Shown here: positions 2,001 to 22,213 of the stretch, piece after piece
How positions within the stretch are numbered: the stretch's first letter is position 1
Layout of the letters: every line of letters begins with the position of its first letter
IMG/VR virus record: IMGVR_UViG_2645728091_000008
From: a virus
Taxonomy: Duplodnaviria > Heunggongvirae > Uroviricota > Caudoviricetes
DNA: 22,213 nucleotides
Strand: one strand, 5' to 3'
Notes under the pieces: generated by a model
Databases searched by the model: none
The model's input: only the letters and a program-made list of their open reading frames with translations
Told to the model about the DNA's origin: nothing
Position numbers and translations under genes: made by a program

Positions 2001-5000
2001 TCAGCTGATACTGATCCCTGCCGTGGATTTTTTCATGACCACAACCAGTAAATCACTGATGTACGTTGTCGGCGTCCAGTTGTTCGCACCGGCCGACGAC
2101 ACATTAAACGTCAGGGTGACATGACCCCGCCCTGCCGGCATATCTATCACCGATGAGAACACCCGGCTGACATCCGTTGCCGGTTCATGGAAAATCTCAA
2201 CCCCGTTCTTCAGCACCTGCAGCTTACAGGTGGAATACCAGTACGACTGCTGATTCGGGCTGTTGAAATTCTGGTGTTTCGTCCCGCGAAACAGCACCGG
2301 GGGAATGATAATCTGCCGGTCGAAGCCCTGGTCATCGTAAACTGTGACGGTTACCGTCCCGCTGGCATAACTGTTATTCCGGGGAAAGGCTTTCCCCACC
2401 GTCTTCACCAGGTCGCCTTCAATCTGGTTTGCAGACAGTTTCCCTCTGATGACACAGTTCTCGTTAATGGTGACATTATTGAGCGTGCCGGTATTCGCGG
2501 TAATTGCTCCGCTGATATCCGCGTTCCTGGCTGTCAGCTTCCCTTCCGGCGTCAGGGAAAACGTCGGGGGGTTGCCGGATGACGTGATACTCGCCGCAAA
2601 CAGACGCTTCAGGAACACGTCGTTCATGAACAGCTGATTCCCCTGCGCCACAAATAACGGAGTGCTGTTGCCGCTCTCCGGATTTATCATCGCGATACGG
2701 TCAGCCAGCAGCAGTATGTTGCTCAGTGGCTGGCCATCAGTATCCTCAATCCCTGCACCAATCCCGGCCACATAGGGAATGCCGTCTTTCGTTTTTTGAA
2801 CCTTCAGCATGTACAGCGCAGCCAGGTCATCATTTGTGTCCTTCTGCACGCGCTGTATCTGCTGAATGGTGGCGCTCTGGTCTTCCAGCGTTTTACTGAC
2901 CGTCTGTGTGATTTCATTGCGGGTTTCGGTGATGGTGGTCTTCATCTCCGCCATCTCATCCGCAAGCTGGCTGTTGTCTATCAGCTCCCATAGCCCCTGA
3001 GCCAGATGCAGTTTTCCTATTTTTTCCCGGAAAAATTCCAGATACCCTTCACCATCATTGCTGGGCTGCCCGCTGACTTCCACAAACGCAGATTTCCCCA
3101 CCAGGTTGACGCTGCGCACGTAAAACCAGAAATCCTTCCCGGGCTTAATGTGCGGGCCGGATACACTCCACTGACTGCCGGTCCCCAGATAACGGGCAGA
3201 GGTTTCCACCTGAGATGTGTCTGCGATTTTTGCCTCCGAAAACCAGAACTCAAACTGTACCGTCGGGTCATACACCGCAAGACGCGGGACCGCCGTTATC
3301 TGAAAATACCCCGGCGTCAGTTCAATGGTGGCGGGTTTTGCTGGCGCGTTAATCCGGAAGGTGGTGGTGGCCGGTTCGCCCTGCTGGCCATAACTGTTAA
3401 TTGCCCTGACTGTCAGGGTGTATTCCCCGAGCGGCAGACCACTGAAACGATGCTCTGTATCCGCAGTGATGGCGGTGGTCACCAGACGGCTGTCTTCTCC
3501 GCTTCCGTTGGTCAGGCGCAGACTGAAGCGCACACCCTTCACCACCCGCGGCGTGTCCCATTTCGCCTGTGCCAGATACTGACCGTCAGCCGCGCTCACC
3601 TCCACCGTCAGGTGCTGCACAGCCGGCGGGATGACGCTGTTCAGCGAACCGGACAGTGGCTCAAAGCTGGCCCCGTTATCCACAATGGCTTCTTTTTCCG
3701 GTACGTGCTGCACCGCCGTGATGGCAAAGGTGCCGTCCGTGTTTTCCCGGATGGAGACACAGCGGAACAGGCGACGACGCAGTGACGGCAGGGAGAGTCC
3801 CCATACACCGTATGTCTCCACACCATCAGGCAGGGTGCTGACCTGTATCCGGTCCGGCGCGGGGTGTGCAGTGATGGCCACGCTCACCGGCTTACCGCTG
3901 CCGTTAATCAGGTTCACCGTGGCGGCACCTGTCTCCGGCAGGGTCACCTCACGGTCCAGTGTCAGGGTGCGGCTGGCGGCATCGATGGACAGGATACGTC
4001 CGCCGGTCATGGTCCCGGCATAGTCGTTATCACAGATTTCAATAATGTCACCGGGTGTGTGACGCAGCCCCTGTGACCCGAGCGTGAAATCCACCGTCTG
4101 CGTTTCCAGCAGTCCGGTCTTTATCACCCACAGCCCGGCACGGTGGGCCTGACCGCGACTGGTGCAACCGAACGCATCCATCTTCAGCAGGTTGCGCCCG
4201 TAGCGCAGTATGGCTTCCGGGTCTTCCACCAGTTCCGTGGAGGTCTGCCAGCCGTTCTGCGGGTCGGTGTAATTCACCTCCACCGCCGTGTGGCGGTCCT
4301 TCAGGGCGCTGAAGCTGTAGCGAAACCCCACGCCGTTATCATCCACCACCACATCGCAGTTGGTGTACGGCCACACCACATCCGACGGGCGGTCCTGAAC
4401 GAACGTCAGCGTCTGGCCGTTCCATACCGGCATACAGCGCATCGCCGAGCAGAAATCACTGAGAACGTCCCACGCCTTACGCTGTTGTGACAGGTACGCA
4501 TTAAAGGTCATCCGCGGCTCTGTGCCCCCGAAACCATCCGGGACCGTCTGGTCGCAGTACTGCCCGATGGCATACAGCGCCCACTTGTCAACATCCGCCG
4601 CCACCAGACGTTTTCCCATGCCGTAGCGCGGGTGAGTCAGCATGTCCCACAGGCACCAGGCCGGGTTGTTGCTGTATGCCGGTTTCAGGCTGCCGTCCCA
4701 GATGCCGCTGTACGTGCGTTTTTCCGGGTCATAGTTTGACGGTACCTGGATGATGCGACCGCGGATATGGTAGTTCACCGTCATCTGCTGACCGCCAAAC
4801 TGCTCCGCATCCACCTGCAGCCCCACAATCGCCGTGTTCGGGTAGCACTGTTTCACATCGATGATTTCGGTGTATGACGACCAGAGCGTCTTATTCTGCA
4901 GCTGGTCCGAGGTGCTGTCCGCTGTCTCCCGGACCATCCGGATGTTAAAGGGCCGCTCAGGCAGATTCTCCAGAATCACCGACGCCAGGTACTGTGAGGT

Positions 5001-5477
5001 GGTCTTGCCGTTAATGGTGACATCCTTTTCCGTCACCCAGTTACCGTTACGCTGCAACTGAATCAGCAGTCGGACAGAAGAGGGATTACGGTCGCCCTTT
5101 GAGGTGGTCTCCAACAGTGACTGCACCCCGAAGGTGACCCGCAGGCGGTCAATGTTCGCGGATGTAATGGTGCGCGTTACCGGCTTTGCCTTCGTCACTT
5201 CCACGCCCAGTCCGGTTTCAGCTCCGGAGGACTCAAAGCCTTCCGGTGGTGTCTGCTCCTGCTCCCCGGCGCGCCAGACCGCGGTCACACCGTGTATCAC
5301 AGGATTGCCGTCCGTGTCCGTCAGCGGGGTTTTGTTCACCAGGATACTCTGCAGCCCCTTCACCGGGCCTTCTATCGGTCCCTCACCAATCGCATCAATC
5401 ACACTCATCATCTGCGTGGATTTGAGATTATCCTTCGCCTCTCGAGGCGTGTGCGCCCTGCCGCCACCTTTGCCCAT
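2001..5477 (-). CDS. J: tail tip / host specificity protein J (central tail fibre), 1158 aa
   Basis: ATG at 5477 with SD GAGAGGA upstream. N-terminus [37 protein letters not shown] is near-identical to recalled lambda J, and length is similar to lambda J (1132 aa). Confidence 0.95.
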
Positions 5478-5491
5478 AATGTTCCTCTCAA

Positions 5492-5546
5492 TTGGTATTA
5501 TTAATCGCAGTGATAGGATATTGCACAGCTATTGCGCGATATCATC
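5492..5546 (+). promoter_or_regulatory. candidate promoter region for sodC (AT-rich; weak -35 TTGGTA 5492..5497, -10-like TAGGAT 5514..5519 or TATCAT 5540..5545)
   Basis: AT-rich stretch between the divergently oriented J start and sodC. Hexamers are imperfect and spacing is not ideal, so this is only a region-level call. Confidence 0.25.
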
Positions 5547-5610
5547 AGAACGCTGTTTGTTACCCTGTAACCAGCAAGCTCAGTCTGTTAACGGAATTAA
5601 TGAGGGTTTT

Positions 5611-6138
5611 ATGAAATGTAAAATCATTGCTGCCATTGCCATGCTGACAGCAGCATCATGCGGATACGCAGCAGAACAGGAAGTCCCAATGAACCTTGTC
5701 AGTGCTGACGGAAAAGAAGTCAGCATTGGAAAAATAACCATTCAGGAGACCCCCTACGGTCTGCTGTTCACACCAGCCCTTCACTCTCTGTCTGAAGGCA
5801 TTCATGGTTTTCATGTGCACGAAAAAGGAAATTGCGCCCCGGCACTGAAAGACGGAAAACCGGTCGCAGCATTATCGGCTGGCGGTCACTTTGACCCGAA
5901 AAACACCGGCAAACATCTTGGCCCCTGGTCTCCGGATGGACACCTGGGCGACCTCCCTGCGCTGTTCGTGACGCATGACGGAAAAGCGAACTACCCGGTC
6001 CTGGCCCCGAGACTGAACTCATTAAAAGAGATTAAAGGGCGTTCTCTCATGCTTCATGCTGGCGGTGATAACCATCATGACCATCCGGAGCCCCTGGGCG
6101 GTGGTGGTGCGAGAATGGCCTGCGGCATCATTCAATAA
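5611..6138 (+). CDS. sodC: periplasmic Cu,Zn superoxide dismutase (175 aa), prophage moron
   Basis: ATG 5611 with SD GAGGG 4 nt upstream, TAA at 6136..6138. N-terminal signal peptide [17 protein letters not shown]. Cu/Zn-SOD signatures [33 protein letters not shown] and [14 protein letters not shown]. It is the C-terminal part of track ORF 5104..6138; the upstream extension is antisense to J and rejected. Confidence 0.95.
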
Positions 6139-6328: not shown

Positions 6329-7009
6329 TTATGCCTGCCGCCCGATAACCACGACCTTTCCGCCCCCGCCTTCATCACGGGTACTGATGTCCTGGGATAT
6401 ACGGCGGGAGCCAACCAGCATTTCACCGTAAGGCACCGGCATCGGGTTCCCCTGGGCAATCATGTTATCCAGCGAGGAAAAGTACGTGTTCTGTCTGCCG
6501 TTATCCGTGCTTTTGTACTCCGGTACTTTAGCCTTCGGGGCCAGCATCTGAGCCACACCACCCAGAATCATGCTGGCCCCCAGTGAAAACAGCATCGTGG
6601 TGGCAGAAAAACCACCGGCTGCCAGGGCTGAACCCCATAACGCCATTGATGCCCCGGCAGTGAAGAAAGAGCCCACGATGGCTGCCGCCCCCAGCACAAT
6701 CTGCAGTCCACCCTTTCCGGCCCCGGCCAGTCGCGGCACAATGTGGATGACCGTTCCCTCACCCAGCTGTTCGTGAAGACGGGCGTACACCGCCTCCGGT
6801 GCCGTGTCCTCACCGCGAATACGTATCTGGTACCAGCCTTCGTTCATCTGACGGCGGAATCCCGGCATCTGCATCGACAGGGCACGGATAGCTTCCGCTG
6901 CCGTGTTCACATACAGGCTGAGGCGGCGGCCAAATCGTTGTAAATCCCCGTGAAGGCAGATACGTGCCAGTGGCGGTGACGCCAGGCTGAATGCGTTCGT
7001 CGTTGCCAT
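6329..7009 (-). CDS. I: tail assembly protein I (226 aa)
   Basis: ATG at 7009. MATTNAFSLASPPLARICLHGDLQRFGRR and the Gly/Ala-rich middle match recalled lambda I. Overlaps the 3' end of K by about 100 nt, as K and I do in lambda. Confidence 0.9.
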   Translation of the reverse strand: MATTNAFSLASPPLARICLHGDLQRFGRRLSLYVNTAAEAIRALSMQMPGFRRQMNEGWYQIRIRGEDTAPEAVYARLHEQLGEGTVIHIVPRLAGAGKGGLQIVLGAAAIVGSFFTAGASMALWGSALAAGGFSATTMLFSLGASMILGGVAQMLAPKAKVPEYKSTDNGRQNTYFSSLDNMIAQGNPMPVPYGEMLVGSRRISQDISTRDEGGGGKVVVIGRQA

Positions 7010-7651
7010 TTTTCGGAATACCTCTCCCGTTTACTCAGTTGTTCAGGCAGATGGTGAAGCAGCTCACCGTTGCCGCAGTATATGGCGGCATGATTGGCCA
7101 CCGATGCGCCAAAGCAGCACAGCAGGATATCGCCAGGCTGTGCGGAAGGCAGGGAAATCCTGTAAAAACCAGTCGCCTCCATATTGTCCAGGTACAGGTT
7201 CTGACCGTTGCGCCACCAGTCATCCTCACGCTCAAAATCCGGCATATCAATTCCCGCCAGATGGTAGGCATCCCGGAACAGCGTGTAACAGTCCGTCACC
7301 CCGTGCTCAAAGCGCCGTCCTGTCAGATGTGGCACACAGCGGAATTTATGAATTTCCCCCCCGGCAGACCAGCCACCAGGACAGTGCACTTTTTATCTGC
7401 AGCCGCCGGTCGGCCTCGCTCAGCCAGGGCAGACCACCGGGATGACTGTGGACCAGTGCCACAATCTCCCCCTGCATCTCTGCCCGCAGCCAGTCTTCCG
7501 GTGCAATACGAAAATACGCCTCCGGCTCTGCAGAGATATTCACACAAGGGATATACCGCTCCCCCTCCGGCGTTCTCACCACGAAGCCGCACGACTCCGC
7601 AGGCACACACCGCCGGGCATGCGCCAGAATCGCTGATTCTGTCTGTGTCAT
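6907..7651 (-). pseudogene. K: tail tip assembly protein K (MPN/JAMM N-domain plus NlpC/P60 C-domain), reading frame broken at a G7 tract
   Basis: N-terminal ORF 7346..7651 (ATG 7651; HSHPGGLPWLSEADR JAMM motif) ends at TAA 7346..7348. C-terminal ORF 6907..7389 (DCYTLFRDAY, HAAIYCG) is in the adjacent frame. The frames can only be joined within 7349..7392, which contains the C7 run at 7356..7362. Removing one C gives a continuous ...WWLVCRGEIHKFRCVPHLTGRRFEHG... Confidence 0.75.
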
Positions 7652-7656
7652 TGGAT

Positions 7657-8355
7657 TTACTGCGAAAGTTTGTTAATGGAAAGGAAACCGCCAAAATTAG
7701 CCACCATGCCGCGCATCTCACACCCGCGCATGCACTTGCTGCATCTGTCCTTACGGATATCGGTGGTGGGTTTATCGAACTCATCCGCCACCGCAGGACC
7801 GTTATACCCGCATTCATCTCCCCGGTAATCCCACATACAGGTGTTCGCCAGCATGATGCGACCGGGAAACAGCGCTCCGTCCGTCTCCGTCGGTGTTGCC
7901 AGCACAAACGAGGCTGTCATGGCCGTCAGCTCTGACATCTGCTCCACCACCCAGCGGTCGCTCAGCTCCTGCTCCGGGTCCGCTTCCGGATTGCCCGCCA
8001 CAAAATTCACCGCATCCAGAAAACGGGCATACACCCGGCGGCGGACCACCGTGGCCCCCACCAGGCTCTGCAGGTCCTCCGCCATTCCGGTGACCAGACC
8101 GAACAGATTCGACACCGTCAGCGACGGGCGGGCACTGCTGCCCTTCCCGTTCATCTCAAAGCCACTGCCGTCAATCGGGTATGCCTGATATTGCCGCCCC
8201 TGCCAGGTAACCGCCTCCCCTTTTTCATTCAGCTCATTGCAGAAAAAATACCGCTCACCACCCTGTACCGTCAGGTCGATTTCCCAGAGTACCACCCGCG
8301 GTGACTGCTCTGATTTAACCGACTCGTTCAGACTTTCTTCGTGAATATCCTGCAT
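7657..8355 (-). CDS. L: minor tail protein L (232 aa)
   Basis: ATG 8355. MQDIHEESLNE...VVLWEIDLT...GGERYFFCNE...NFGGFLSINKLSQ matches recalled lambda L. Same length as lambda L. Confidence 0.95.
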   Translation of the reverse strand: MQDIHEESLNESVKSEQSPRVVLWEIDLTVQGGERYFFCNELNEKGEAVTWQGRQYQAYPIDGSGFEMNGKGSSARPSLTVSNLFGLVTGMAEDLQSLVGATVVRRRVYARFLDAVNFVAGNPEADPEQELSDRWVVEQMSELTAMTASFVLATPTETDGALFPGRIMLANTCMWDYRGDECGYNGPAVADEFDKPTTDIRKDRCSKCMRGCEMRGMVANFGGFLSINKLSQ

Positions 8356-8684: not shown

Positions 8685-11260
8685 CGCCTGCCTCCGGAAA
8701 AGACGCCGCCATCACGCATCTGCGCCTGAATCTCATCCTGCGCCCCCTTGCGGGCCATGTCATACACCGCCTTCATCAGCTGCGGCCCCGCCTGTCCGTT
8801 GGTGCCGTCGTTCTGAATCACCACGTGATTGTTCTGATTAAAACTAATGCCTTCCGCCCGCCGCATCTGCGCCGGACTTCCGGCACCGCCCACATAACCA
8901 CCTTCCGCATACCCGCGCATCAGACGATACAGGTTGCCGACGCCAATCCGGCTGGTTGCCTCCTTCGTGAAGACAAACTCCCCGCGGTGGACAATACCGG
9001 CAGGTTCGTATTTGCCACCGGTTCCCGTAAATCCTCCGGTCGCGAAATGGAAGTTCGCCGCCGCAGCCTGAATGGCCGTCCCCGTGGAGGCAGACGCCCC
9101 ACCACCGAAAGCACCACCCATGGCGCTGCCAATACTCCCGACAATCCCCACCATGGCCTGCTTCAGAAAAATCTCTGTCAGCATGGAGAGCACAGAACGG
9201 GTGAAACCACGCCAGCTCTGTTCGCTGCCGGTCAGCATCGCTGCCATATTCTGTGCAATACCGTCAAAGGTCTGCGTGGCCACGCTTTTAACCTGCGAAA
9301 AACTGTCCGTCGCACTTTCTGCCCACTCGCCCCAGCCGGGCTTCAGACCGGCCATCCAGCTTCCACGAAGCTGCTCCTCCGCAGACCAGGTGTTCTTCAG
9401 TGCAGATGTGGCCTTCGCCAGCGCATCCGGATTATCACCGTACACGTCACGAAGGCGCTGCTCTTCCGACTCCCGCTGCACCTGACGGTCGGTGAGGCCC
9501 CGCGCCTGGGCACTGATTGCCGCCTGCTTCGCGCCCTGCTGCTGCTCAAACCGCGCAGCCTGCTGTGCCAGCTCATTCAGCCGTTTCTGGTGTTCAACTT
9601 TGTCTCCCAGCTCAGCCAGCTGGCGTTTGTACTCCAGCGTCTCTTTCTCATGGGTCAGCAGGGATTTTTCCTGCTCAGATAACTGCCGTTTCGTGGCTGC
9701 CTCTTTCAGGACCGCATACTGATTTTCCGCTTTCCATAAATCGCGACGCTGCTGGCTGATTTTCCCATTCGCACCGCTGTGTTTTTCCAGCGTCCGGAGC
9801 TCGGTTTCAAGCGCCAGCAGGGCAGCATGCGCCTGGTCTTCCTGACGCTCACCGGCTGACACTTTGACTCCTGACGACTTCGGCTTTTTCAGCGTCGATT
9901 CATAATCCTTTTTCGCCGCCGCCATCAGCGTGTTGTAATCCGCCTGCAGGATTTTCCCGTCTTTCAGGGCCTTATTCAGTTCTTCCTGACGGGCGGTATA
10001 TTTCTCCAGCGGCGTCAGCAGACGCTCATACGCCTTCTGCGCCTCTCCGGTATACTTCAGCTGTGATGCGTCCCGTTCGGCCCGGTCCCTGGCGGCCAGT
10101 TCACCGGCTTTTTCCATATCCGACTGCAGCGTGGCCGCTGCCAGCCCCAGACGGGCATTTTCCCGGTCATTCCATGCGCCCTGAAGGTTGGCCCGGAAAG
10201 AGGAGGTTTTACCGCGGCGCTGGCTCCGACTCTGGTACCACTGCCATTTTTTATCCGCCTCATCAAATGCCTTCTGCGCACTGGCGAGCATATCCGCTGA
10301 GGATTCCGGACGACCGATATCCAGAATGGCATCCCACATCGATTTGAATGCCTTCCCTGTTTTATCCGCCCAGGTCTCCAGTGTTCCCATGTTTTCTTTC
10401 AGGCGACGGGTCTGCTCATCAAAGCCTTTCGTGGCGATATCGTTCGCCGCCTGCAATGCCCCGGCCTCGTCTCCGGAACGCTGCAGCTGTGCAACATACG
10501 CAATCTGCTCTGCCGTCACGTTACGGAACTGGCGCGCCATCGCCATCAGTCCCGACGTCGGGTCAGTGGTCAGCTTCCCGAAGGCTTCAGCGACTTTATC
10601 CACCTCCACACCGGATGCAGACGCAAAACGCGCGACACTCTGGTTGATGGCATCAAACTGTTCACCACCACGCACACCGGCATTCACCAGGGCTGCCAGT
10701 GACTCTCTCGCCTGGTTAAACGTCAGCCCTGCTGCCTGCCCGGCTCTTGAGAGAGTCAGCATACGATCGGCAGTCAGTCCGGACTGATTACCGGAAAGAA
10801 CCAGGGTTTTATTAAACGCTGAAAGCGTGGAATCCCCCTGGTACCAGGCGTACGCCAGCGCACCTGTCGCCACCGCCAGCGAGGTGACCCCGACCATCGG
10901 CAGGGTGATCGCACCGGCAAGCCCCCTGAGCATGGGGATCATCCCGCCGAAGGAGTCCTTCACCTGACCGCCCTGTTGCAGCAGGATCAGCCAGGGATTC
11001 TGACCACCGGCAAGCTGCGTGGCGATATCCGTAAACTGTGCGGGCAGGGTGCGCATGGCCGCTTTATACTGTCCGACGGAAATCCCGGCTTTTTGCGCAG
11101 CCAGCGCCTGACGGCTCAGGCCCTGTTCAACAGCAGTGGCGGTTTTTCTGGCGTCAGTATCCAGTCCTGAAAAATGACGCCTTACCCGGCTCATCTGCTC
11201 ATCGAAACGGACCGCATCCAGACTCAGGTCAATAATAAGATCACCAACCGGCTGGGACAT
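8681..11260 (-). CDS. H: tail tape measure protein H (859 aa)
   Basis: ATG 11260. MSQPVGDLIIDLSLDAVRFDEQMSRVRRHF and long stretches (for example QLAGGQNPWLILLQQGGQVKDSFGGMIPM) match recalled lambda H (853 aa). Confidence 0.95.
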   Translation of the reverse strand: MSQPVGDLIIDLSLDAVRFDEQMSRVRRHFSGLDTDARKTATAVEQGLSRQALAAQKAGISVGQYKAAMRTLPAQFTDIATQLAGGQNPWLILLQQGGQVKDSFGGMIPMLRGLAGAITLPMVGVTSLAVATGALAYAWYQGDSTLSAFNKTLVLSGNQSGLTADRMLTLSRAGQAAGLTFNQARESLAALVNAGVRGGEQFDAINQSVARFASASGVEVDKVAEAFGKLTTDPTSGLMAMARQFRNVTAEQIAYVAQLQRSGDEAGALQAANDIATKGFDEQTRRLKENMGTLETWADKTGKAFKSMWDAILDIGRPESSADMLASAQKAFDEADKKWQWYQSRSQRRGKTSSFRANLQGAWNDRENARLGLAAATLQSDMEKAGELAARDRAERDASQLKYTGEAQKAYERLLTPLEKYTARQEELNKALKDGKILQADYNTLMAAAKKDYESTLKKPKSSGVKVSAGERQEDQAHAALLALETELRTLEKHSGANGKISQQRRDLWKAENQYAVLKEAATKRQLSEQEKSLLTHEKETLEYKRQLAELGDKVEHQKRLNELAQQAARFEQQQGAKQAAISAQARGLTDRQVQRESEEQRLRDVYGDNPDALAKATSALKNTWSAEEQLRGSWMAGLKPGWGEWAESATDSFSQVKSVATQTFDGIAQNMAAMLTGSEQSWRGFTRSVLSMLTEIFLKQAMVGIVGSIGSAMGGAFGGGASASTGTAIQAAAANFHFATGGFTGTGGKYEPAGIVHRGEFVFTKEATSRIGVGNLYRLMRGYAEGGYVGGAGSPAQMRRAEGISFNQNNHVVIQNDGTNGQAGPQLMKAVYDMARKGAQDEIQAQMRDGGVFSGGRR

Positions 11261-12112
11261 ATCTCACACCTCCTGGAATCCCCGCTGAAGCCATCATTAA
11301 TGCGGCATCATCCACCATGACATCCGCCACATCCGCAGACGATAAAATATCGCCCCCTCCGTCCCCACCGAACCGGACGCCTCCGGCAAGTCCTGCCGCT
11401 TTCTGCATCAGCATTTTGTCCTCATCCAGCCTCTCCACCTGCTCTTCCTCATGCCGGGGGACAAGCAGACTGAAATCAGAGGGATGCATATCCGGATCGC
11501 AAAAAAACAGGCTGAGTACAGCGTACATCAGCCCGGAAAAATGCATATCCAGTTGGGTATCCTGAAAATAATGCGTGCGGTAAAAATGTCGCCAGTCGGC
11601 ATATTCGGTGGATGTCATCCCGGCAAGCATGGCGCGCCAGTCAGGCCTCCCCATCTCTCGCGCCAGTCTGAGGGCAAAATTCAGCTCGCCGTCGAAGACT
11701 TTCCCGCAGAAAAATCATCATCAGTAAGCGCGTTATTTTTCGCCACTTCGGTGATATCCGTATCCACATGAACAGCCCCGCTCATCCCGGACAGACGCAA
11801 CACCACGTCTTCCGCCCGGGCAATGGCATCAGCAGGCCAGGTGGTGAGCACCTCCTGTTCGATCTGCATCACAGCCTCATTCATTGATGGTGACTCCGTT
11901 TTCTGTGGATGGTTATGCCACAGGGACATCGCCACCAGAAACGCGCCGGTTCTGACAAGGTCTTCCACGCTCACCTGCAGGTTACCGCTGGCTTCAGCCT
12001 GTTCTGCCCGTCGTTTCAGCAGGGCAAGATGCTCGATACGCTGCAGCGCAGACAGCTCGGAAAGCGTGACGGACACACCGTTATATTCAAATTGTTCGGT
12101 TTTCAGAAACAT
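11241..12112 (-). CDS. GT: tail assembly chaperone G-T fusion made by a -1 programmed ribosomal frameshift (T-frame part 11241..11705)
   Basis: T-frame ORF 11241..11654 (MGRPDWRAMLAGMTSTEYADW) has the same codon phase as the -1 frame leaving the slippery heptamer. No stop occurs between 11697 and 11655 in that frame. Confidence 0.8.
11681..12112 (-). CDS. G: tail assembly chaperone G (143 aa)
   Basis: ATG 12112. MFLKTEQFEYNGVSVTLSELSALQRIEHLALLKR matches recalled lambda G. Ends ...SAGKSSTAS with TGA at 11681..11683. Confidence 0.9.
   Translation of the reverse strand: MFLKTEQFEYNGVSVTLSELSALQRIEHLALLKRRAEQAEASGNLQVSVEDLVRTGAFLVAMSLWHNHPQKTESPSMNEAVMQIEQEVLTTWPADAIARAEDVVLRLSGMSGAVHVDTDITEVAKNNALTDDDFSAGKSSTAS
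11699..11705 (-). promoter_or_regulatory. slippery heptamer G GGA AAG for the G/GT -1 frameshift
   Basis: Minus-strand GGGAAAG, with GGA and AAG as zero-frame codons of G, six codons before the G stop. Same heptamer and position as the lambda G-T recoding site. Confidence 0.8.
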
Positions 12113-14221: not shown

Positions 14222-14588
14222 AAACAGCCATTCCACCATCAACGTGTGTTTTTGCATCTGAGGACATAATCAGAATCACCCGACCAACATCCGCAAGCTC
14301 AACGGATTCCCCCGTTTCACCATCAACGCCACAGAGATGGAGGCAGGTCAGAACTCTGATGCGCGTTAACGCGCCGGATGTTTCCTCACGAACATCATGA
14401 GCCGCGTTTTCCCTCTCCCGGATATCCATATTCATAACCTGTACATCATCGCCGGATGACTGCATTTCCTCTTCCCATTCTGCCACCCGCTGCGCTATCT
14501 CTGCGGCACTCCCGGATATATCCGGCTCACGCCCCAGAATCAGGGCCAGTTCATCAAGCCGTTTCAGATTTTGCTCTTTCGTTGCCAT
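14214..14588 (-). CDS. FI: DNA packaging / head assembly protein FI (124 aa)
   Basis: Track start 14636 is GTG. I prefer ATG 14588 (MATKEQNLKRLDELALILG) with SD GGGGGA 5 nt upstream. Position between E and FII as in lambda; sequence similarity is moderate. Confidence 0.8.
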   Translation of the reverse strand: MATKEQNLKRLDELALILGREPDISGSAAEIAQRVAEWEEEMQSSGDDVQVMNMDIRERENAAHDVREETSGALTRIRVLTCLHLCGVDGETGESVELADVGRVILIMSSDAKTHVDGGMAVYA

Positions 14589-21988: not shown

Positions 21989-22114
21989 CGTAACCTGTCG
22001 GATCGCCGGAAAGGACCCACGAAAATGATAATAATTATCATCTACATGAGGTTTATCACGACATGTGTGTACGCCATCAAACCACGAGAAATAATCAATT
22101 ATTACGCAGGTATC
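21989..22114 (-). other. phage genome right-end segment including the expected cosQ region
   Basis: Reverse complement is near-identical to the recalled last ~125 bp of the lambda right end (...GGTCCTTTCCGG.GATCCGACAGGTTACG next to cosN). Similarity stops abruptly at 22114. Confidence 0.6.
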
Positions 22115-22213
22115 TGAACCGCCCCGGGAATCCTGGAGACTAAACTCCCTGAGAAAGAGGTAAACAGGATGACTAAAAATACTCGTTTTTCCCCCGAAGT
22201 CCGTCAGAGGGCG
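22115..22213 (+). mobile_element. left end of an IS3-family insertion sequence (IS629/IS1203-like), truncated by the window
   Basis: Starts TGAACCGCCCCGGGAATCCTGGAGACTAAACTCCCTGAGAAAGAGG, which I recall as the IS629-type left inverted repeat, followed by the orfA start. Lambda-like sequence breaks exactly here. Confidence 0.75.
22169..22213 (+). CDS. IS3-family transposase OrfA, first 15 codons only
   Basis: ATG 22169 after AGAGG SD. MTKNTRFSPEVRQRA matches the recalled N-terminus of IS629/IS1203 OrfA. Confidence 0.75.
   Translation, partial: MTKNTRFSPEVRQRA

What the first reader, a model, noticed from the sequence alone, without database searches (positions are those of the whole stretch)
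7346..7395. Tail assembly gene K is broken by a single-nucleotide frame shift inside a C7/G7 homopolymer
The JAMM/MPN half of K (7346..7651) and the NlpC/P60 half (6907..7389) are in adjacent frames, each closed by a stop just past the junction (7346..7348 and 7393..7395). The only stretch where they can be joined contains the C7 run at 7356..7362. One fewer C gives a continuous K reading ...WWLVCRGEIHKFRCVPHLTGRRFEHG.... The three explanations are a real 1-nt insertion (decaying prophage with a tail assembly defect), a homopolymer sequencing error, or a slippage-prone tract acting as an on/off switch.
Basis: seen in the sequence. Interest (0 to 1): 0.55.

Follow-up and report, generated by a model that had tools for sequence, protein, structure and literature searches.

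The report
Frameshifted prophage tail gene K
A lambda-like prophage in an E. coli draft genome carries a genuine one-base insertion in a run of Gs that breaks its tail-assembly gene K; this is an ordinary, already-annotated kind of prophage pseudogene, not a sequencing error or a programmed recoding site.

Summary
On the minus strand, K lies between L and I and is split after codon 98 by a G7 run (C7 at 7356..7362 on the + strand). The N-terminal part (7346..7651) holds the JAB/JAMM domain and the C-terminal part (6907..7389) holds NlpC/P60. Removing one base restores a 247-aa K.

The window is contig JHTG01000051.1 of GCA_001266375.1. The same G7 allele, giving the identical 101-aa truncated product, occurs in seven other assemblies: five isolate genomes and two metagenomes. 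K is the only net indel in 22 kb against a 99%-identical relative, and all 22 other late genes are intact. A one-off sequencing error is therefore unlikely.

It is not conserved recoding either. No matching phage record (0 of 94) has G7. Among about 700 matching complete E. coli records (about 2,800 gene copies), 2 have G7, 14 have G5, none has G8 and the rest have G6. PGAP labels the G7 copies "frameshifted".

G7 sits on at least two distinct I-K-L backgrounds, each with an otherwise identical G6 twin. The run therefore looks like a recurrent slippage hotspot, although short gene-conversion tracts are not excluded.

Most likely consequence: no full-length K, so no tails unless a co-resident prophage supplies K. 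Interest is low.

The parts
7356..7362 (-). G7 homopolymer on the gene strand (C7 on +). It is G6 in intact K genes, and the extra base causes the frameshift after codon 98.
6907..7651 (-). The whole K pseudogene (tail tip assembly protein K, 'C40 family peptidase'), 745 nt here against 744 nt when intact.
   Evidence: PGAP marks the same allele 'frameshifted' in two other genomes.
7346..7651 (-). N-terminal K fragment of 101 aa. It has the Prok-JAB/JAMM domain with a complete metal-binding motif, then 3 out-of-frame residues (GNS) and TAA.
   Evidence: The exact product is called on 10 contigs.
6907..7389 (-). C-terminal K reading frame with the complete NlpC/P60 domain. The true K-derived codons run 7358..6910, and there is no obvious ribosome-binding site of its own.
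   Evidence: The absence of an SD is read from the sequence (alignment).
7393..7395 (-). TAA that closes the C-terminal frame upstream. Together with the TAA at 7346..7348 it limits any frame-joining event to 7349..7392.
6329..6910 (-). Gene I (193 aa, Lambda_tail_I). Its GTG start overlaps the K stop (ATGTGA), so its translation may be coupled to K.
   Evidence: The coupling is an inference.
7657..8355 (-). Gene L (232 aa), intact and immediately upstream of K.

Best explanation
This is a genuine, heritable +1 insertion (G6 to G7) in gene K of a lambda-like, sodC-carrying E. coli prophage. The most likely cause is replication slippage on the homopolymer.

K is a two-peptidase protein (JAB/JAMM plus NlpC/P60). 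In lambda it is required for tail-tip assembly but is not part of the virion. The insertion stops translation after residue 98 (plus 3 wrong residues). What is made is a 101-aa JAB fragment. The NlpC/P60 half has no start signal of its own and is not made, or hardly made. Expression of the translationally overlapping gene I may also fall.

The prophage, otherwise intact in its 22 other late genes, should therefore be unable to build tails on its own. It could still be rescued in trans by K from co-resident lambdoid prophages, or by reversion to G6.

Shown here: the insertion, its presence in independent assemblies, the domain split, its rarity among relatives, and its absence from phage records. 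Inferred: slippage as the mechanism, loss of function, polarity on I, and trans-complementation.
For: (1) The extra G against otherwise identical relatives. The restored ORF is a 247-aa K.

(2) The window is JHTG01000051.1. The exact 101-aa truncated product is called on 10 contigs. These include four other short-contig isolate assemblies, one 5.36-Mb contig (UGAF01000006) and two ENA metagenome assemblies. All have G7 in the DNA.

(3) Inheritance. L007 and L010 are 99.98-99.99% identical to the window over 6-11 kb and L008 is 99.35% identical. L005 and L009 share both G7 and the same 866-aa truncation of J, which in L005 is followed by an IS66 element.

(4) No error signature. Against L013 (99.0% identity, 217 SNPs), the K run is the only net indel in 22.1 kb. 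None of the other 18 runs of 6 nt or more differs. All 22 other CDSs are full-length without gaps or stops.

(5) Rarity. G7 is in 2 of 694 matching E. coli records (2,825 places), 0 of 94 phage records, and 2 IMG/VR contigs against at least 120 with G6. PGAP calls the G7 copies 'frameshifted'.

(6) Hotspot behaviour. G5 alleles also exist (14 E. coli records, 5 IMG/VR contigs). Other K frameshifts cluster at shorter homopolymers.

(7) Function. gpK is required for tail assembly and is absent from virions (PMC12617516; PMC10721106). K is JAB plus NlpC/P60 and is predicted to process the ubiquitin-like gpI (PMC1779556).

(8) Trans rescue is plausible. Genomes carrying this K have a median of 3 copies, and defects of lambdoid prophages are complemented by co-resident prophages in O157 Sakai (PMC2669165).
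Against: No raw reads were available, and I could not verify the sequencing platform of any of the assemblies. Short-read origin is only inferred from the short contigs that end in repeats.

A systematic, sequence-specific error recurring at this run is not formally excluded. Some G5 or G7 alleles in 'complete' genomes sit beside other frameshifted genes and are probably errors.

Loss of function is inferred, not measured. The frameshift falls almost exactly at the domain boundary, so both halves could fold if the second were translated. Low-level frameshifting on G runs has a precedent in HSV thymidine kinase (PMC5009743).
Confidence: 0.8

Rival explanations
1. Homopolymer sequencing or assembly error: the strain really has G6 and an intact K.
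For: The indel lies in the longest G/C homopolymer of the window. Elsewhere, indels at this run occur in assemblies with several neighbouring frameshifted genes. L004 has a second K indel plus a frameshifted portal gene. Z1323PEC0010 has K, I and sodC all frameshifted. Even the lambda reference sequence has a one-base error in K.
Against: The same allele is in seven other assemblies from several accession series, in one multi-megabase contig and in two metagenomes. It follows near-clonal backgrounds. The contig has no other indel in 22 kb and no other broken gene. About 2,800 G6 copies from all kinds of assemblies show no systematic tendency to read G7.
Confidence: 0.07
2. Reversible phase-variation switch: the G run toggles K, and so tail production, on and off at a useful frequency.
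For: Two distinct I-K-L backgrounds each exist as otherwise identical G6 and G7 forms. G5 alleles also exist. This shows the tract changes length repeatedly.
Against: The tract is short (6-7). The length spectrum is narrow, with no G8 allele found and G7 in only 2 of 694 records. No phage record carries an off-length tract of G7. From general knowledge, known contingency loci use longer tracts and show broad length distributions, and mismatch-repair-proficient E. coli slips rarely at 6-7-nt runs. Other K frameshifts at shorter runs look like plain decay.
Confidence: 0.06
3. Leaky or programmed recoding: +1 ribosomal frameshifting or transcriptional slippage on G7 yields enough full-length K for assembly, since K is needed only as a non-structural factor.
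For: K is not a virion component. The joinable interval 7349..7392 contains the G run. Low-level compensatory frameshifting on a G run has a precedent (HSV TK).
Against: The two-frame arrangement is not conserved: it is absent from all 94 phage records and nearly all prophages. The real programmed site of this gene cluster (G-T, GGGAAAG at 11699..11705) is conserved where expected. From general knowledge, bacterial transcriptional slippage needs runs of about 9 A/T.
Confidence: 0.03
4. A tolerated domain split: the JAB fragment and a re-initiated NlpC/P60 fragment work as two polypeptides.
For: The break lies at residue 98, between Prok-JAB (3-105) and NLPC_P60 (111-224). In-frame GTG codons lie just upstream and 11 nt downstream of the N-half stop. 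Some phages have NlpC/P60-only K versions (PMC1779556).
Against: There is no Shine-Dalgarno sequence before either GTG (read from the sequence). The fragment loses the last ~10 positions of the JAB profile. The same paper suggests NlpC-only versions are degenerate prophage forms. No phage record has this arrangement. A sister G7 lineage shows further decay.
Confidence: 0.04

Closest known systems
Bacteriophage lambda gpK (tail tip assembly protein K; TAPK; 'C40 family peptidase')
   Same: Same position between L and I, upstream of J. Same JAB/JAMM plus NlpC/P60 architecture. About 85% DNA identity to lambda K.
   Different: Here the ORF is interrupted after codon 98. This EHEC/EPEC-type allele has CGG GGG GAA (G6), where lambda has CGG GGG ACG (G5).
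PGAP-annotated 'frameshifted' K pseudogenes in E. coli SJ7 (NZ_CP044315) and SCPM-O-B-9504 (NZ_CP144930)
   Same: Identical G7 allele at the same run, annotated as a pseudogene.
   Different: Different prophage backbones: no sodC in SJ7, and an HK97-type head module in SCPM-O-B-9504. The latter has extra indels that suggest sequencing error.
Defective lambdoid prophages of E. coli O157 Sakai (Asadulghani et al. 2009, PMC2669165)
   Same: Lambdoid prophages carrying virulence cargo with frameshift or IS defects in morphogenesis genes, which can be complemented by co-resident prophages.
   Different: In the window only one gene is hit, and no experimental data exist for this strain.
Frameshift in the stf side-tail-fibre gene of laboratory lambda
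   Same: A single-base frameshift in a tail gene fixed in a phage lineage (mentioned in PMC10721106).
   Different: stf is dispensable for plaque formation, whereas K is required for tail assembly.
HSV thymidine kinase G-string indel mutants
   Same: A +1 or -1 change in a run of about 7 Gs, with possible very low-level compensatory frameshifting.
   Different: That is a eukaryotic virus under drug selection. Nothing here shows selection or leakiness.

Membership tests
Lambda gpK / TAPK tail tip assembly protein | N-terminal prokaryotic JAB domain with the JAMM motif E-Xn-H-S/T-H-X7-S-X-X-D | tested here: met
   Pfam Prok-JAB E=1.2e-15. E19, H68-S-H70 and S78-E-A-D81 read from the sequence. 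Motif definition taken from the PMC300881 abstract.
Lambda gpK / TAPK tail tip assembly protein | C-terminal NlpC/P60 (C40) peptidase domain | tested here: met
   Pfam NLPC_P60 E=1.1e-13, full profile 1-105, in the 6907..7389 frame.
Lambda gpK / TAPK tail tip assembly protein | Gene order L-K-I-(J) in the tail-tip cluster | tested here: met
   A sodC gene is inserted between I and J, as in the relatives.
Lambda gpK / TAPK tail tip assembly protein | Both domains in one continuous ORF of about 247 aa (a functional gene) | tested here: not met
   The ORF is split after codon 98 by the extra G. It is therefore a pseudogene member of the family.
Programmed frameshift / recoding site | The two-frame arrangement is conserved in homologues, including functional phages | tested here: not met
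   0 of 94 phage records, 2 of 694 E. coli records, and 2 against at least 120 IMG/VR contigs.
Programmed frameshift / recoding site | Measurable frameshifting efficiency at the site, with stimulatory elements | not testable with these tools
   This needs a reporter assay or mass spectrometry.
Phase-variable contingency locus (simple-sequence repeat) | Tract length varies between otherwise identical backgrounds | tested here: met
   hap1: window/L007/L008/L010 (G7) against L001 (G6). hap2: L005/L009/L011 (G7) against L104/L023 (G6). G5 alleles also exist. The variation is at low frequency only.
Phase-variable contingency locus (simple-sequence repeat) | A long tract with a broad length distribution and off-lengths common in the population | tested here: not met
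   Complete E. coli genomes, by record: G5 in 14, G7 in 2, G8 in 0, and G6 in the rest, out of about 700 matching records. IMG/VR contigs: 5, at least 120, 2 and 0 for G5, G6, G7 and G8.
Phase-variable contingency locus (simple-sequence repeat) | High measured switching rate | not testable with these tools
   This needs a fluctuation assay or deep sequencing of a culture.
Sequencing artefact | The allele is confined to one assembly, and the same contig shows other homopolymer indels | tested here: not met
   Eight assemblies in all, counting the window's own. It is the only net indel in 22 kb, and the 22 other CDSs are intact.

The most novel reading that the evidence does not exclude
The G6/G7 run in K is a recurrent, reversible toggle for an effector- and sodC-carrying prophage. 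Slippage to G7 locks the element in the chromosome as tail-less. Either rare reversion or about 1% +1 frameshifting on the G run supplies enough of the non-structural K protein to release infectious particles occasionally. This would be a heritable dimmer on prophage mobility.
Probability: 0.05. Interest if true: 0.5.

Novelty: already known. Interest (0 to 1): 0.15.

Why it matters
The main value is practical.

- The gene should be annotated as a frameshifted K pseudogene. This prophage should not be scored as self-sufficient for virion production, although it may still be mobilised with help from sister prophages.
- The survey shows that the G6 run in the EHEC/EPEC-type K allele is the single most frequently hit site in that gene, with both +1 and -1 changes. 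This is useful to know when judging prophage intactness or polishing long-read assemblies.
- It does not open a new biological question.

Tried and rejected
- Exact scans of genome contigs for the G7 38-mer and 22-mer found nothing. That collection holds one genome per species, so the result says little.
- Paper searches for the WGS accessions JHTG and JHSF found nothing relevant. The sequencing platform and strain identity of the window stay unverified.
- Searches failed on input errors (wrong frame, illegal search term, query too short, wrong file path). Searches were repeated correctly. One search was replaced by the proper G5 and G8 queries.
- I considered that lambda's 199-aa K meant the N-terminal part of JAB is dispensable. 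I rejected this because the 199-aa annotation comes from one base missing in J02459/NC_001416, which independently sequenced lambdas do not share.
- I considered a single origin of G7 followed by clonal spread. I rejected it as the whole story because G7 lies on several different I-K-L backgrounds, each with an identical G6 twin. Short gene-conversion tracts cannot be told apart from independent slippage with these data.
- I did not use structure prediction or the large protein searches, because the family assignment was already unambiguous.

Full report
**1. What is in the sequence**

The minus strand of the window carries a lambda-type late operon. The genes run Nu1, A, W, B, C, D, E, FI, FII, Z, U, V, G, T, H, M, L, K, I, then sodC on the opposite strand, then J, lom and the start of a tail-fibre gene.

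ORF 7346..7651 (101 aa) ends at TAA 7348..7346. ORF 6907..7389 is closed upstream by TAA 7395..7393. The 44-nt interval between the two stops contains C7 at 7356..7362, which is G7 on the gene strand.

Pfam assigns Prok-JAB to the first piece (E=1.2e-15) and NLPC_P60 to the second (E=1.1e-13). The JAMM motif is complete in the first piece (E19, H68-S-H70, S78-x-x-D81). Removing one G gives a 744-nt ORF encoding a 247-aa K that reads ...WWLVCRGEIHKFRCVPHLTGRRFEHG....

**2. Comparison with relatives**

An 851-nt query across K matches 4,401 complete-genome E. coli records. The best matches are 99.8-99.9% identical and one base shorter. A direct alignment with E. coli Z1323HEC0067 and phage CP-1639 shows G6 in both, with identical flanks. 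There K is annotated as an intact 744-nt 'C40 family peptidase' or 'tail fiber component K'.

**3. Real allele or error**

An exact look-up of the 101-aa truncated product identified the window itself as contig JHTG01000051.1 (22,213 bp) of GCA_001266375.1. It also found the same product on other contigs:

- GCA_001265845.1 (JHSF01)
- GCA_002460965.1 (NKPB01)
- GCA_001285125.1 (CYAN01)
- GCA_001285105.1 (CYAU01)
- a 5.36-Mb contig of GCA_900448385.1 (UGAF01)
- two ENA metagenome assemblies

All of them have G7 in the DNA. L007 and L010 are 99.98-99.99% identical to the window over 6-11 kb, L008 is 99.35% identical, and the others are 96-99%.

Within the window, the K run is the only net indel in 22.1 kb against a relative that differs by 217 substitutions. 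None of the other 18 homopolymers of 6 nt or more differs in length. All 22 other CDSs map full-length without gaps or stops.

So this contig shows no sign of a homopolymer-error problem, and the allele is inherited. I could not inspect reads or confirm the sequencing platforms (searches found nothing), so a small residual probability of error remains.

**4. Not conserved recoding**

I used a 75-mer centred on the run, so that only exact G7 copies fall in the 100% identity band.

| Collection | G5 | G6 | G7 | G8 |
|---|---|---|---|---|
| Complete E. coli genomes (records) | 14 | the rest of about 700 records (2,825 to 3,362 places) | 2 of 694 | 0 |
| Phage records | not queried | 51 records at 95-99% identity; the top 15 listed match with a one-base gap | 0 of 94 | not queried |

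The two IMG/VR G7 contigs look like copies of L011 and L009. The two RefSeq G7 copies, in strains SJ7 and SCPM-O-B-9504, are labelled 'frameshifted' by PGAP.

The genuine programmed frameshift of this gene cluster, the G-T site GGGAAAG, is present where expected at 11699..11705.

**5. One origin or many**

K is a conserved island inside mosaic prophages. After normalising the run length, the two most common K haplotypes each contain both forms.

Over the whole I-K-L region, the window, L007, L008 and L010 (all G7) are identical to L001 (G6) at every variable site. L005, L009 and L011 (G7) are identical to L104 and L023 (G6). These two backgrounds differ from each other at dozens of sites. L012, L003 and L004 carry G7 on yet other backgrounds.

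This means at least two independent slippage events, or short gene-conversion tracts between co-resident prophages, or reversion. The data cannot separate these possibilities.

G5 alleles also exist. Other K frameshifts in about 7 of roughly 97 G6-selected loci lie mostly at shorter homopolymers (A5 at nt 262, G5 at nt 179-184, G4 at nt 343). The picture is of homopolymer-length-dependent indels, with the G6 run as the most frequently hit site.

Some of these are clearly assembly errors. L004 has a second K indel and a frameshifted portal gene. Z1323PEC0010 has K, I and sodC all frameshifted.

**6. Consequence (inferred)**

gpK is required for lambda tail assembly. It was not detected in virions by mass spectrometry and was not resolved in cryo-EM structures (PMC10721106; PMC12617516).

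Iyer, Burroughs and Aravind described K as JAB plus NlpC/P60 and predicted that it processes the ubiquitin-like domain of gpI (PMC1779556).

The frameshift falls at residue 98, near the JAB/NlpC boundary (JAB 3-105, NlpC/P60 111-224). A nearly complete JAB fragment can be made, but the NlpC/P60 half lacks a ribosome-binding site.

The K stop overlaps the I start (ATGTGA at 6907..6912). Premature termination 437 nt upstream may therefore also reduce I translation.

The prophage should be tail-defective on its own. Genomes with this K carry a median of 3 copies, and morphogenetic defects of lambdoid prophages are complemented by co-resident prophages in O157 Sakai (PMC2669165). Mobilisation with help is therefore plausible.

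In one G7 lineage (L005, L009), J is truncated at the same 866-aa point, followed in L005 by an IS66 element. In L005 the head protease gene is also split. That is what one expects once an element is already defective.

**7. Alternatives kept open at low probability**

- Sequencing error: 0.07
- Reversible switch: 0.06
- Tolerated split into two polypeptides: 0.04
- Leaky frameshifting on the G run: 0.03, with the HSV TK G-string as precedent (PMC5009743)

**8. Verdict**

It is an ordinary prophage pseudogene of a kind already annotated in RefSeq, so novelty is 'already known' and interest is low.

Noticed in passing
L014 (lambda NC_001416 13300-15700), about L014 967 = lambda ~14263: The canonical lambda reference (J02459/NC_001416) annotates K as 199 aa. 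It lacks one base relative to the related prophages in the window set (GGAGGC-TATTTC). This puts the first 48 codons of the JAB domain, including the catalytic Glu, out of frame. Only 4 lambda records share this. Independently sequenced lambdas (KT232076, LC730321, PV340536, imm21/imm434 hybrids, DE3) span one base more over the same 75-mer. This implies a full-length K of about 247 aa and a likely error in the 1982 sequence, but I did not align or translate those records.
   Followed up: partly
window 5611-6138 (+): A Cu-Zn superoxide dismutase gene (sodC, 175 aa) is inserted on the opposite strand between tail genes I and J. It is 100% identical to WP_000649829.1-type sodC in relatives. Relatives carry the T3SS effector nleB2 just beyond the tail-fibre genes. 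The 344-aa ORF 5104..6138 is only an upstream extension of sodC.
   Followed up: partly
window 11699-11705 (-): The canonical lambda G-T programmed -1 frameshift heptamer GGGAAAG is present just before the G stop (11681-11683). T is only 89% identical to the closest relative while its neighbours are 98% or more, which marks a small mosaic patch at 11244-11654.
   Followed up: no
L005 12175-18112; L009 5243-7843: In the sister G7 lineage (UGAF01, CYAN01), J is truncated at the same 866-aa point. In L005 the truncation is followed by an IS66-family element, and L009's contig ends there. In L005 the head protease gene C is also split into 265-aa and 247-aa products. The prophage is decaying further.
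   Followed up: partly
L001 1080-1487; window 14236-14432: The near-identical G6 relative Z1323HEC0067 has its own 'frameshifted' FI gene and a highly divergent, gap-rich stretch in FI relative to the window. The window's FI and FII are intact.
   Followed up: no
window 22114-22213 and 1-1244: Nearly all relatives stop matching at 22114, so the last 100 bases differ from them. The other contig end cuts a tail-fibre gene. Contig breaks inside prophage repeats are typical of short-read assemblies of strains with several prophages.
   Followed up: no
L034, L079, L087, L088, L102, L127, L136, L137, L139 (IMG/VR K loci): Other frameshifting indels in K occur at short homopolymers (A5 at nt 262, G5 at nt 179-184, G4 at nt 343). 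Two loci have three separate 1-nt deletions each. This is a mixture of real decay and probable sequencing error in public prophage contigs.
   Followed up: partly
L142 (NZ_CP148282.1 1995987-1999059): A 'complete' RefSeq genome has K (G5), I and sodC all marked frameshifted in a row. It is a likely example of uncorrected homopolymer errors, and a caution when counting G5 alleles.
   Followed up: no
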